From an uncultured virus (IMG/VR IMGVR_UViG_3300020137_000030) (taxonomy: Duplodnaviria; Heunggongvirae; Uroviricota; Caudoviricetes): DNA of 20,000 bases. Both the position numbers and the translations under genes were made by a program. The stretch lies in IMG/VR virus record IMGVR_UViG_3300020137_000030; one strand, written 5' to 3'. The notes below the pieces were generated by a model. That model searched no databases and was not told the origin of the DNA. It saw only the letters and a program-made list of their open reading frames with translations. Positions 543 to 9,116 of the stretch are shown piece by piece (position 1 is the stretch's first letter; each line of letters starts with the position of its first letter).

Positions 543-619
543 TGCGGAGTGGGGGAGAGGCGTCCCCGCCGGGCTCATAACCCGTGAGATCGCCAGTTCG
601 AGTCTGGCCTCCGCAACCA
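543..619 (+). tRNA. tRNA-Met(CAT), initiator-like
   Basis: TGCGGAG/CTCCGCA, GGG-CTCATAA-CCC (three G-C pairs typical of initiators), encoded CCA. Confidence 0.88.
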
Positions 620-620
620 C

Positions 621-717
621 GCCCTCGTAGCGCAGCCGTAGGACAGGAAGCCTCTTCCCCGCGCGAGCGGGGGTCGTTCTCGGGAGGTTGCAGGTTCGAG
701 TCCTGCCGGGGGCACCA
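621..717 (+). ncRNA. tRNA(Arg)-like scaffold whose D-stem 3' side and anticodon arm are replaced by a CRISPR-repeat-like sequence
   Basis: Intact acceptor GCCCTCG/CGGGGGC-A-CCA and T-arm GCAGG-TTCGAGT-CCTGC; no 7-nt anticodon loop; 97 nt long. Confidence 0.7.
652..680 (+). CRISPR. Solitary type I-E-like CRISPR repeat unit
   Basis: CTCTTCCCCGCGCGAGCGGGGGTCGTTCT (29 nt); core TTCCCCGCGC-AGCGGGG matches the E. coli I-E repeat GTGTTCCCCGCGCCAGCGGGGATAAACCG at 17/18 core positions. Confidence 0.6.
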
Positions 718-742: not shown

Positions 743-1069
743 ATGTCGGCCACAACATCGGCAGCGGTCCTGCTGCCGTCCCAGCTCGAGACCCGCGGCA
801 CCGCCGCCGTGCTCGTGCGCCACGCAGTACCCGCAGGCACCACCGACGTCGCGATCGGCGCCGTCGAGGCCGCATCAGTGTCCGCCGGGGCCGCCGACGA
901 GATCGTCAAGCGGCTCCTGGACGCCTCCGTGCAGCGGGTCGTCCTGGTCAACCCGCAGGCCGGGGTCGAACGGTCGCTGCGTCTGGCTCTGGCCCGTCGC
1001 AGCACCCGCGACCGCACGTTCCTGCTGTCGGTCCAGCACCGCAGCGACGACGTCCTGTACCCGGCCTGA
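743..1069 (+). CDS. Small protein (108 aa), possible STAS-like/DUF4325-type domain
   Basis: Strong SD AGGAGG before the ATG; LETRGTAAVL...SVSAGAADEIVKRL...VVLVNP pattern resembles STAS-like DUF4325. Confidence 0.6.
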   Translation: MSATTSAAVLLPSQLETRGTAAVLVRHAVPAGTTDVAIGAVEAASVSAGAADEIVKRLLDASVQRVVLVNPQAGVERSLRLALARRSTRDRTFLLSVQHRSDDVLYPA

Positions 1070-2121: not shown

Positions 2122-2134
2122 CTGCGGCCACGTG

Positions 2135-2142
2135 CCGCACAT
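2135..2142 (+). promoter_or_regulatory. CCGCACAT putative -10-like element
   Basis: Exact motif; 9-nt spacing predicts a start at G2152, the first base of a closed RNA structure. Confidence 0.7.
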
Positions 2143-2151
2143 AGGTACTTC

Positions 2152-2229
2152 GAGCGAGAGACCCCGCCACAGTGGTAGCGGGGCGAGCCGGGCACATGAA
2201 CCCGGCCACGACGCGGACCCGTGTCGCTC
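2152..2229 (+). ncRNA. Putative four-way-junction small RNA
   Basis: GAGCGA/TCGCTC closing stem enclosing hairpins CCCCGC/GCGGGG, GCCGGG/CCCGGC and CACG/CGTG. Confidence 0.45.
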
Positions 2230-2271
2230 GAGTCGGTCCGAAGTCGGTGGGACTGCAGCCCGCCGGCACAT

Positions 2272-2728: not shown

Positions 2729-2875
2729 GTGAACCTCGAGCACGACACGCCGACCGCCCTTGCCGAGCGCGGTCAACCAGGCGGCTCGACAGACCCAAGG
2801 GCGCCCGCGGGTCTGGCATCTGGCCCGGATGCGGTCGAGGGGACCCCGATACCAGGCGATCGGGAGGGCACACCA

Positions 2876-2949
2876 CTGGACGTAGCGCAGATGGCTAGCG
2901 CGTCCGCTTTGGGAGCGGAAGGTCGCGGGTTCGAGTCCCGCCGTCCGGA
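2876..2949 (+). tRNA. tRNA-Pro(TGG)
   Basis: TCCGC-TTTGGGA-GCGGA. Confidence 0.94.
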
Positions 2950-3138
2950 CGTAGCCGCCGTGTGCGGCACCTGCCCGCGGACCACCCTGCCGGTCCGGCC
3001 GCGGGCCGAGTGGACCGGCGATGGGTGCTCACGCGAGTCGACCCGAACTCGACCCAGGAGCGGACGCGAAGCGCCTGCGAATGGGTGGAGGTACAACTCG
3101 ACTCGCCCCGCCGCTGCACGAGCGATCGTGCAGCGTGC

Positions 3139-3436: not shown

Positions 3437-3522
3437 GGTGGGTTGGCAGAGTGGCGAATGCAGCCGTCTTGAACACGGTAGGCCGGGCGACCGGTCCGGG
3501 GGTTCGAGTCCCTCACCCACCG
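3437..3522 (+). tRNA. tRNA-Ser(TGA)
   Basis: GCCGT-CTTGAAC-ACGGT, long variable arm. Confidence 0.92.
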
Positions 3523-3526
3523 CCGA

Positions 3527-3611
3527 GGAGGATGAACCGGGCGAGGCCCGGCGCCGGTTGCTAGCCGGTCGGGCGGCGCGAGCCGCTGGGTGGCGGGAAC
3601 TCCGTCCTCCG
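3527..3611 (+). tRNA. tRNA-Ser(GCT), non-canonical T-loop
   Basis: GGAGGAT/GTCCTCC-G, GCCGG-TTGCTAG-CCGGT; T-loop GGCGGGA. Confidence 0.7.
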
Positions 3612-3615
3612 CCGA

Positions 3616-3700
3616 GGAAGAAGAACCGCCTGGGAGGCGGCGCCGGTTGGAAGCCGGTCGGGCGGCGCGAGCCGCTGGGGATCGTGCCCTCCTTCTTCCG
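3616..3700 (+). tRNA. tRNA-Ser(GGA), non-canonical T-loop
   Basis: GGAAGAA/TTCTTCC-G, GCCGG-TTGGAAG-CCGGT; T-loop ATCGTGC. Confidence 0.75.
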
Positions 3701-3972: not shown

Positions 3973-4144
3973 GTGCCCGTGACCGTGACCGCCCGACGAC
4001 CACGGTCCAGCACCGGACCGTCAGGTGCGCACGGAGGCGGCCAGCGGTGACACCTACGAGCAGGCACGCGACGACCTGTTCGCCAAGATCCCCGACGGCT
4101 GGCGTGTCATGCACCTGAACGTCAGCCGGGACACGCCCCTGTAG
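3973..4144 (+). pseudogene. Possible small or frameshifted hypothetical gene (...GDTYEQARDDLFAKIPDGWRVMHLNVSRD)
   Basis: Frame 4025-4144 has coding-like GC3 codons and a protein-like sequence; the upstream part appears to be in other frames. Confidence 0.35.
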
Positions 4145-4207
4145 CTCAGCGGAAAGAGCGCCCGCCTACGGAGCGGGAGGCCGCTGGTTCGATCCCAGTC
4201 GGGGGCA
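4135..4207 (+). tRNA. tRNA-Arg(ACG)
   Basis: CCCGC-CTACGGA-GCGGG. Confidence 0.94.
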
Positions 4208-4230
4208 CCCCTCGCGGCTGTCGGCCGCAC

Positions 4231-8264: not shown

Positions 8265-9116
8265 TCAGGCGGGTCGCACGGACTCGACCGGGGCCCGCAC
8301 GAGCCTCCCACGGTCGCGCAGGTGGACCACCACACTGGTGCGCCCGACCCTGGTGACCGGCCCCGACTCGCCGTCGTACTCGTGGCCGGGCAGGTCGATC
8401 GTGACGGTGTCGCCCACCTTGAGCGTGACCGTCGCCTTCGGTTCCGGGTGGCGGGCGACGGCGGCAGCGACCTGCGGGTCGACGACGTTGCGGGTCCACT
8501 CGAAGCGCCGCTCGTCGGGGGCCTGGTCGCGCGGGTGGTCTCGGTGCCCGCAGTAGCCCAGCGTGCGCTTGCGCGGCGACGGCATCCGACCCTGCGTGAC
8601 GGTGTGCCCCGACGGGCAGGTCCCCACGACCGCCGCGGTCTGGACGGTGACGTCCTGGTCGAGCCGGACCGTGGCTGTCGGGTCGGCCCCGAGACGCAGC
8701 GCGGTCGCCTGCCAGCGTGACCCGTGCCCGTCGTGCGGGCCGCACAACGCGTGGGCGACCTCGTGCAGGACCGTGTCGAGCCGCTCGGCGCCGTCCACCG
8801 CGGCCATCTTCGGCCCGGACAGGACGATCAGCCGCCGGGCGTGGTGGGTGGACCCCAGCCGGGACCCGAGCTTGGACGTGTACGCGAGCGTCCAGTCGTG
8901 CAGTCCGTGCTCGTCCATCGTCTTGCGCGCCTGCACGTACAGGGCGTCGAGCAGGTCTCCGGGTGCGACGTGCGGGTCGTCGGCGTACGGGTCGACGGCG
9001 GGTGGTTGCGCCTCGAGCGTGACGGCGGGCTCGTCGCGCGCCTTCGTGACGAACTGGCCTGCCCCGGCCCCGGGGGCACGGTTGCGCGGGTGGGCGGACT
9101 CGACGAACGTTGCCAT
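8265..9116 (-). CDS. SprT-like zinc metalloprotease domain protein with N-terminal HPR peptide and C-terminal SH3/KOW-like domain
   Basis: LLDALY..HGLHDW..RLG..TVLHEVAHAL..GHGSRWQ; tail LKVGDTVTI..GPVTRVGRTSVVV. Confidence 0.85.
   Translation of the reverse strand: MATFVESAHPRNRAPGAGAGQFVTKARDEPAVTLEAQPPAVDPYADDPHVAPGDLLDALYVQARKTMDEHGLHDWTLAYTSKLGSRLGSTHHARRLIVLSGPKMAAVDGAERLDTVLHEVAHALCGPHDGHGSRWQATALRLGADPTATVRLDQDVTVQTAAVVGTCPSGHTVTQGRMPSPRKRTLGYCGHRDHPRDQAPDERRFEWTRNVVDPQVAAAVARHPEPKATVTLKVGDTVTIDLPGHEYDGESGPVTRVGRTSVVVHLRDRGRLVRAPVESVRPA

What the first reader, a model, noticed from the sequence alone, without database searches (positions are those of the whole stretch)
621..717. tRNA scaffold carrying a solitary type I-E CRISPR repeat: candidate tRNA-embedded RNA anti-CRISPR
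Seen: a tRNA-Arg-like acceptor stem, T-arm and encoded CCA are intact. The D-stem 3' strand and anticodon arm are replaced by CTCTTCCCCGCGCGAGCGGGGGTCGTTCT (652-680). Known: this matches the type I-E repeat pattern (CCCCGC-4nt-GCGGGG stem plus 8-nt handle), and solitary repeat units on mobile elements can act as RNA anti-CRISPRs (Racr) by sequestering Cas6/Cas7. Inference: the tRNA shell would give RNase P processing and stability. Cas6e cleavage at the stem base would release an 8-nt handle plus 37 nt of tRNA 3' half, a crRNA-sized decoy. An alternative is a scar of recombination between a host array and a targeted tRNA.
Basis: partly seen in the sequence, partly recalled or inferred. Interest (0 to 1): 0.9.

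Follow-up and report, generated by a model that had tools for sequence, protein, structure and literature searches.

The report
CRISPR array start inside a tRNA
An arginine tRNA gene on a large mobile element has had its middle replaced by the first 43 letters of a bacterial CRISPR array, most likely a scar left when the element escaped CRISPR attack, though the hybrid RNA could also act as a decoy against that immunity.

Summary
Window 652-679 is 26/28 identical to array repeats that lie beside type I-E cas genes. So one 43-nt piece, leader end plus first repeat, replaced positions 17-38 of a tRNA-Arg gene. The tRNA's own 3' half follows in spacer register, with the repeat where a PAM would have been. 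The element belongs to a family of Actinomycetales megaplasmids/integrated elements. The relatives that keep this slot hold an ordinary tRNA-Arg there; no second chimera was found in genome, metagenome or viral scans. Best reading (0.6): a scar of capture from an array that had just acquired a spacer against this tRNA. A working RNA anti-CRISPR is possible (about 0.2) but untested. If it works, the active piece should be the 52-nt product upstream of the cut, not the 45-nt handle product. The scan earlier noted similar captures on other DNA (type I-C repeat in a phage tRNA-like RNA, e1-5687709; unchecked here).

The parts
621..636 (+). Retained 5' part of a tRNA-Arg gene (positions 1-16: acceptor 5' strand, U8-A9, D-stem 5' strand GCGC, start of D-loop)
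   Evidence: 14/16 identical to the Arg(ACG) gene in the same slot of G1228, which has the same D-stem strand; the 16 best of 351 tRNA genes over the whole shell are all Arg
636..651 (+). 3' end of a type I-E CRISPR leader (5' junction at about 634-637, a 3-nt overlap with the tRNA; junction position inferred)
   Evidence: 13/16 identical to leader ends in L020 and G371, 12/16 to L001; 13.3 bits, reached by 3 of 39,968 window 16-mers and 0 of 290 spacer tails; with arrays picked by likeness to the element left out, 8.5 bits, 20 of 39,968
652..679 (+). One 28-nt type I-E repeat; hairpin 657-672; expected Cas6e cut between 672 and 673 (cut site from established knowledge, not tested)
   Evidence: 26/28 to G007/G363 repeats beside cas5e, cas7e, cse2, cas6e (just under its cut-off), cas3, cas1e in G007; hairpin pairs 0.83 in the ensemble
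680..717 (+). Retained 3' half of the tRNA (positions 39-76: anticodon-stem 3' strand, variable loop, T-arm 690-706, acceptor 3' strand 707-713, A714, CCA); 680-712 is one spacer length (33 nt)
   Evidence: 33/35 identical to a chromosomal Arg(TCT) of G1087, 29-31/35 to the best Arg(CCG) genes, 23-26/35 to the Arg(ACG) genes of the slot; 33 nt is the modal spacer length behind a 28-nt repeat
543..619 (+). tRNA-Met(CAT), initiator type by its acceptor end (inferred), one base upstream; probably the same transcript
   Evidence: ARAGORN; also the upstream neighbour of the slot in G1228 and G1087
743..1069 (+). 108-aa ORF with a STAS-like/DUF4325-like predicted fold; not tied to the repeat
   Evidence: 51% identical homolog behind the ordinary tRNA in G1228; no Pfam match; Atlas leads
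4135..4209 (+). Intact tRNA-Arg(ACG) standing in the slot where relatives have Arg(CCG); possible replacement for the destroyed gene
   Evidence: neighbours Gln(TTG) and Val(GAC) as for Arg(CCG) in G1112; G39 as in 9 of 10 CCG genes but 2 of 9 other ACG genes

Best explanation
A capture scar. A type I-E array (of a host or of a co-resident element) acquired, at its leader end, a spacer from the 3' half of this element's tRNA-Arg gene. The element then took in the array's leader end and first repeat: the 3' join lies in the shared spacer/protospacer, the 5' join at a few shared bases. Spacer-mediated recombination during repair of the attacked DNA is the likely route; a half-finished Cas1-Cas2 integration would leave the same join. 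The repeat now occupies the PAM position, so the site looks like an array and escapes that spacer. The price was the tRNA: the gene can no longer decode, and another gene of the array supplies Arg(ACG). Shown: the identity of the three pieces, their register and the ancestral state. Inferred: the order of events, the PAM, escape, compensation, and lack of any present function.
For: Leader end and repeat are both present and in register; a leader marks the first repeat, where new spacers enter. One event explains the length: 16 + 43 + 38 = 97 nt. The 3' join falls right after tRNA positions 37-38, so the PAM slot reads AAG or AAT if the ancestor was Arg(TCT)-like, GAG if CCG, GAT if ACG. AAG and GAG interfere in E. 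coli and the repeat's own flank does not (PMC6568314). Ordinary tRNA-Arg genes hold the slot in the three relatives that keep it. No repeat-like sequence in 217,109 bases of 11 loci of related elements (best 11.4 bits against 24.3) or in 130 enlarged tRNA shells (best -1.4). Recombination between spacers and their targets is reported (Varble 2019 as cited in PMC8616872), and capture from host arrays is suggested for phage mini-arrays (PMC6858448). One spacer of a G002 array matches 25/26 bases of a tRNA-Leu gene of a related element.
Against: No donor array with this spacer was found, and the host is unknown. Only 6 of 290 spacers begin with T, as this one would. PAM-like triplets are common in tRNA-Arg (8-13 positions of about 76 by the loose rule), so the PAM fit is modest support, and whether AAT or GAT are active PAMs was not visible in the text read. 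The closest relatives are distant (DnaE 57-76%), so an ordinary tRNA in them does not show that the chimera is unconserved among near kin. Acceptor stem, T-arm, CCA and hairpin are all intact, which fits a recent event but also selection. The Arg isoacceptor of origin is unresolved (slot says ACG; sequence says TCT or CCG).
Confidence: 0.6

Rival explanations
1. Same origin, but now a working RNA anti-CRISPR expressed from the tRNA operon. Processing at 621 and a Cas6e cut after 672 would give a 52-nt RNA: 31 nt plus the 21-nt repeat hairpin, in effect a crRNA without its 5' handle. It could hold Cas6e and about five Cas7 but not Cas5/Cas8, like the RacrIF1 subcomplex.
For: Full repeat with a stable hairpin (0.83); lengths computed; the upstream product is the active one in RacrIF1 and two I-E Racrs inhibit a Pseudomonas I-E system (PMC10651486); even a non-targeting crRNA reduced interference there; G371, host of a relative, has an array of this repeat class; a contig from an RNA library covers the element.
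Against: Single occurrence; no conservation shown. No own promoter found, by a sigma-70 scan only. The 5' and 3' products stay paired through the acceptor stem (probability 0.97-1.0), which would hinder Cas7 loading. The 31-nt length follows from the scar geometry without any selection. The RNA-library contigs also cover coding DNA and do not show transcription. The adjacent ORF is conserved without the repeat and shows no sign of being an Acr.
Confidence: 0.2
2. A one-spacer guide or seed array. The 45-nt 3' product (8-nt handle plus tRNA 3' half) loads into Cascade and targets sister elements that still carry the intact gene with its PAM, while this element is protected; or the leader end plus repeat serves as an integration site or DNA decoy for Cas1-Cas2.
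For: Leader-repeat-spacer order is that of an array start; virus-borne mini-arrays target related elements (PMC6858448); of five genomes searched, two hold a tRNA within 2-3 mismatches of the 32-nt stretch, all mismatches in its first five bases, so hosts might be spared.
Against: No second repeat and no 3' hairpin; the 3' product folds on itself (-17.6 kcal/mol); only 16 nt of leader are kept; no added spacer or joint at the repeat in four runs (contigs only); no exact target found.
Confidence: 0.1
3. Chance likeness: a decayed or enlarged tRNA whose G+C-rich anticodon arm, with a short tandem duplication, happens to resemble a repeat.
For: Arg anticodon stems can read CCCGC/GCGGG (window 4135, L018); 4 of 41 genome hits are short tRNA-like genes whose anticodon arm forms the same palindrome; enlarged tRNA shells are common (130 distinct).
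Against: Given the stem, the other 16 positions match at p about 1e-4 with a profile from arrays found by stem-centred patterns, and 0 of 104 non-array hairpins score as high. The leader match is independent (p about 5e-4). 26/28 identity to real repeats.
Confidence: 0.03

Closest known systems
Solitary repeat units and RNA anti-CRISPRs (RacrIF1, RacrIE1/2; Camara-Wilpert et al. 2023, PMC10651486; read: passages and parts 2-3 of 9 of the main text, one supplement search)
   Same: One full repeat of a host CRISPR subtype, alone, in non-coding DNA of a mobile element, with an intact Cas6 hairpin.
   Different: It lies inside a tRNA gene of an operon and carries a leader end; no own promoter found; no function tested. 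The word tRNA does not occur in that paper's main text, and the 16-nt hairpin was not found in its 9 supplementary files as held.
Spacer-mediated recombination between CRISPR loci and their targets (Varble et al. 2019; not held; known here only through passages of the review PMC8616872)
   Same: Array DNA joined to the target exactly at the spacer/protospacer.
   Different: There: staphylococcal phages and transfer of CRISPR loci. Here: a 43-nt type I-E leader-repeat piece fixed inside a tRNA gene of a megaplasmid-type element.
Virus-borne mini-CRISPR arrays (Medvedeva et al. 2019, PMC6858448; passages read)
   Same: Leader, repeat and a spacer-length sequence on a mobile element, away from cas genes within this window.
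   Different: No second repeat; the 'spacer' is the element's own tRNA; only 16 nt of leader. The stand-alone repeats in that paper had no recognizable leader.
Delocalized crRNAs of CAST transposons that home near tRNA genes (passages of PMC11656645)
   Same: A repeat outside an array followed by tRNA-related sequence.
   Different: No transposase or Cas genes among the 15 window proteins scanned; the repeat is embedded in the tRNA shell itself.
AcrIIIA1 with t(m)RNA fragments (PMC11662646; abstract only)
   Same: tRNA-derived RNA in an anti-CRISPR context.
   Different: Protein-dependent, type III-A, host tRNA fragments, no repeat mimicry.

Membership tests
Type I-E CRISPR repeat | At least 90% identity to a repeat of an array beside I-E cas genes | tested here: met
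   26/28 to G007 and G363; cas5e, cas7e, cse2, cas3, cas1e over cut-off and cas6e just under in G007; cas3 and cas1e in G363. Caveat: a related repeat (19-20/28) lies beside type I-G genes in G1302.
Type I-E CRISPR repeat | 6-bp hairpin with 4-nt loop followed by an 8-nt handle | tested here: met
   657-672, pair probability 0.83; handle 673-680 differs from the G007 repeat at two positions
Solitary repeat unit (SRUFinder criteria as read) | No other full or partial repeat nearby; non-coding context; mobile element | tested here: met
   Profile score 34.1 against 4.8 for the next best place in the window; tRNA array with megaplasmid-type DnaE. The rest of the contig (up to 248 kb) was not seen, and the SRUFinder bit score was not computed.
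RNA anti-CRISPR (Racr) | Expressed as RNA, often from its own promoter | tested here: inconclusive
   No sigma-70 site in 1-1300; RNA-library contig covers 564-770 but contigs cannot show transcription
RNA anti-CRISPR (Racr) | Host carries a CRISPR-Cas system of the matching subtype | tested here: inconclusive
   Host unknown. G371 has an array of this class; G1228, G1112 and G1087 showed only scattered single matches to the core pattern.
RNA anti-CRISPR (Racr) | Bound and cut by Cas6; upstream product binds Cas7; interference falls | not testable with these tools
   Needs biochemistry
RNA anti-CRISPR (Racr) | Often next to acr genes (a tendency, not required) | tested here: inconclusive
   Neighbour ORF is STAS-like by predicted fold and conserved without the repeat; no Acr library was searched
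Functional tRNA | Cloverleaf with D-arm and 7-nt anticodon loop | tested here: not met
   Positions 17-38 replaced; not called by ARAGORN
Functional tRNA | Acceptor stem, T-arm, discriminator and CCA | tested here: met
   Present in sequence; T-arm disfavoured in the computed ensemble, forcing it costs 2.4 kcal/mol
CRISPR mini-array | A spacer flanked by two repeats (one may be truncated) | tested here: not met
   No second repeat at 713 or elsewhere in the window
CRISPR mini-array | Leader before the first repeat | tested here: met
   16-nt leader end only

The most novel reading that the evidence does not exclude
A CRISPR escape scar turned weapon: one capture event erased the PAM and built an RNA that the tRNA operon expresses and trims at no extra cost. 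Cas6e cleavage would yield a handle-less 52-nt decoy, and perhaps a 45-nt guide against sister elements. It would be a tRNA-scaffolded RNA anti-CRISPR and a direct snapshot of how solitary repeat units are born from the leader end of host arrays.
Probability: 0.2. Interest if true: 0.85.

Novelty: new variant of a known kind. Interest (0 to 1): 0.55.

Why it matters
Thousands of solitary CRISPR repeats are known on viruses and plasmids, but how they get there is mostly conjecture. Here the donor (an array's leader end and first repeat), the target (a tRNA gene whose ordinary form is seen in relatives) and both joins can be read from the sequence. That makes 'capture at the newest spacer erases the PAM' directly testable. 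It also suggests that tRNA arrays of mobile elements are CRISPR targets and can pay for escape with a redundant tRNA.

Tried and rejected
No genome is held for the window, so the rest of the contig and the host's CRISPR loci could not be read. Homolog searches for the chimera: viral hairpin-plus-T-loop scan, 8 loci, none a tRNA with an embedded repeat; all-genome scan, 41 loci, none with paired acceptor ends around an insert; metagenome and viral shell scans, 95 and 85 loci, 130 distinct shells, none with a repeat; leader-plus-repeat scan of viral contigs, 1 locus, the known array of L001's contig. These are exact-pattern scans and would miss diverged copies. DnaE relatives in viral contigs were at most 37% identical and were not followed. 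Searches for related elements with the 411-aa protein: 8 of 401, 1 of 7 (74), 1 of 36 (81), 2 of 351 (86), 0 of 301 (93), 23 of 337 (100); tRNA arrays were fetched for only 7 of these genomes (G371, G039, G362, G1228, G1112, G1087, G1302). The G039 stretch and the G1302 stretch held only 2 tRNAs each, G362 has another gene order, and G1112 has lost the slot. My interim assignment of the shell to Arg(CCG) was dropped when closer relatives showed Arg(ACG) in the slot and Arg(TCT) scored best. My idea that the D-arm was remodelled by several mutations was dropped for the leader match. The first profile test (p 5e-7) was circular and was replaced. A YrlA/Y-RNA reading (23.1 bits, far under 69) was rejected. 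REP-type palindromes score below the element. Gaps between RNA-library contigs at 408-563 and 771-826 are no evidence of RNA ends. 290 spacers gave no full-length match to the window. No complex prediction was run: it cannot score an RNA partner.

Full report
Context. The window starts inside an array of 28 tRNA genes and a tmRNA called by ARAGORN. It is followed by an HNH nuclease, a dCMP deaminase-like gene, an exonuclease, two methylases, a glutaredoxin and an intein-bearing DnaE. The best DnaE matches among plasmids are Curtobacterium and Arthrobacter-group megaplasmids (41-48%). Named homologs of the 411-aa protein come from Cellulomonas hominis and a Cellulosimicrobium. So this is a large tRNA-array element of Actinomycetales, plasmid or integrated; the host is unknown and no genome is held.

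The observation. 621-717 has a 7-pair acceptor stem, T-arm, A73 and CCA and is the only uncalled tRNA shell in the window. It is spanned without a differing letter by contigs of three DNA runs (two samples, possibly the source) and one RNA library of another study. The hairpin core is expected 0.01 times by chance.

It is a real type I-E repeat. A search of 401 Actinomycetales genomes with 653-679 at up to 3 mismatches gave 85 matches in 4 genomes: three arrays and one lone copy; the reversed control gave none. The G007 and G363 repeats equal 652-679 at 26 of 28 positions, and G007's array lies beside cas5e, cas7e, cse2, cas6e, cas3 and cas1e. Because tRNA-Arg anticodon stems can share the inner palindrome, I tested the 16 positions outside the stem with a profile from six arrays found by stem-centred patterns: p about 1e-4, and 0 of 104 non-array hairpins score as high.

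It brought its leader. The 16 bases before the repeat match what precedes the first repeat of actinobacterial arrays: 13/16 to L020 and to G371's own array. They score 13.3 bits on a profile of 15 candidate leader ends (two of which are probably not leaders); 3 of 39,968 window 16-mers and 0 of 290 spacer tails reach that, and Arg D-loops reach at most 3.5. With the five arrays picked by likeness to the element left out, 20 of 39,968 reach the score.

The ancestral state. In G1228 the order is Val, Glu, Glu, Met(CAT), Arg(ACG), a 51% homolog of ORF 743-1069, Leu(CAG). In G1087 it is Met(CAT), Arg(ACG), Leu(CAG). In G371, Arg(ACG) and Arg(CCG) precede Leu(CAG). G1112 has lost the stretch. Against a 76-nt gene the element keeps positions 1-16 and 39-76, and 43 nt of leader end plus repeat stand in for 22 nt: 97 nt from one event. 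The 16 best of 351 tRNA genes are all Arg, but the isoacceptor is open. Slot, D-stem strand and T39 favour ACG. The T-arm favours CCG (7 of 10 against 2 of 9). The best overall scores are chromosomal Arg(TCT) genes (44/51, against 43/51 for CCG). The window's intact Arg(ACG) at 4135 stands where G1112 and G1228 have Arg(CCG) and has G39 like 9 of 10 CCG genes. That suggests an anticodon change or a swap that covers the loss; whole-gene identities do not decide it, and the part of the array upstream of the window was not seen.

No second chimera. Pattern scans of viral contigs, all genome representatives and metagenomes found none. Profile scans of 11 loci of related elements and of 130 enlarged tRNA shells found no repeat. 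Exact patterns miss diverged copies, and no close sister element is available.

How it most likely arose. New spacers enter behind the first repeat (established knowledge). Leader end, first repeat and then 33 nt of tRNA is what the start of an array looks like just after it has taken a spacer from this tRNA; arrays of this class have a 28 + 33 period. A crossover in the spacer and a second join at a few shared bases near 634-637 would give the element as seen. The repeat then fills the PAM slot, which was AAG/AAT, GAG or GAT by isoacceptor. In E. coli AAG and GAG interfere and the repeat flank does not (PMC6568314: passages and section 6; the full PAM list is in a figure I could not see). Against: only 6 of 290 spacers start with T, such triplets are common in tRNA-Arg, and no donor array was found. 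Spacer-target recombination is reported for staphylococcal phages (Varble 2019, via passages of PMC8616872). I noted the PAM-slot idea before seeing the scan's earlier notes; note e1-5687709 reports the same geometry for a type I-C repeat in a phage tRNA-like RNA (not checked here).

Could it work as an anti-CRISPR? The hairpin forms in silico (0.83) and the acceptor stem too, but the T-arm is outcompeted (0.02, against about 0.55 in an intact control), and in the longer precursor the best fold is not a cloverleaf. In RacrIF1 the product upstream of the cut holds Cas6f and Cas7f and does the inhibiting, while a handle-only RNA did not. The 45-nt product would be a guide rather than a decoy; the nearest tRNAs in five genomes differ from it in the first five bases. 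There is no evidence of expression or processing: RNA-library contigs cover coding DNA as well, and no promoter was found with a sigma-70 scan.

Novelty. Ten literature searches listed no paper whose title or abstract start describes a CRISPR repeat inside a tRNA gene; I saw listings only for most, and subscription papers and bioRxiv supplements are not covered. The Racr paper's supplements, as held, lack this hairpin; long files may have been cut. It meets the criteria of a solitary repeat unit that I could test, fails those of a functional tRNA and of a two-repeat mini-array, and cannot be filed as a Racr without an experiment. Verdict: a new variant of a known kind; interest 0.55; about 0.2 that it is a working tRNA-scaffolded anti-CRISPR.

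Noticed in passing
L015 8340-8503, L016 5089-5252, L019 5032-5192; also L426 11310-11432 and L428 (reverse strand) 8341-8492: tRNA-shelled RNAs of 123-164 nt (paired acceptor ends and T-arm, greatly enlarged middle), missed by ARAGORN, in the arrays of related elements; the three Curtobacterium copies resemble each other and sit between Asn(GTT) and Thr(TGT).
   Followed up: no
L443 69-7950 (G1302, same contig as a related element): Type I-G cas7, csb2 and cas3 genes beside an array whose repeat and leader look like type I-E ones; no cas1 among the 8 ORFs scanned.
   Followed up: partly
window 4135-4209: tRNA-Arg(ACG) in the slot and with the 31-39 pair of Arg(CCG) genes of relatives; possible anticodon switch. 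No Arg(CCG) is called in the window.
   Followed up: partly
window 2132-2267, 2873-3053, 257-542, 1249-1340: Non-tRNA stretches inside the array conserved in relatives (2132-2267 is 96% identical in G1112); candidate structured RNAs with no Rfam match over a gathering score.
   Followed up: no
window 3517-3694: Two tandem 89-nt copies, 79% alike; the second is called Ser(GGA), the first looks by eye like Ser(GCT) with an aberrant T-loop and is not called.
   Followed up: no
L252 (G002 array) against L372 12061-12086; L012 array: A spacer matches 25 of 26 bases of a tRNA-Leu(CAA) gene in G371's element, and another spacer holds a tRNA T-arm: I-E-type arrays may sample tRNA genes.
   Followed up: partly
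L005 300-500; L002, L003, L004, L006; L283 4417-4445: Degenerate or lone I-E-like repeats on viral contigs (L005 beside two tRNA genes) and one lone copy in G404.
   Followed up: no
L022, L030, L040, L047: Short tRNA-like genes whose anticodon arm is itself the CCCCGC-N4-GCGGGG palindrome with a 4-nt loop.
   Followed up: no
L427 5800-7150 (G1112): An ORF that looks by eye like a transposase (not tested) stands where Tyr to Leu(CAG), including the Met-Arg slot, lie in relatives.
   Followed up: no
   Followed up: no
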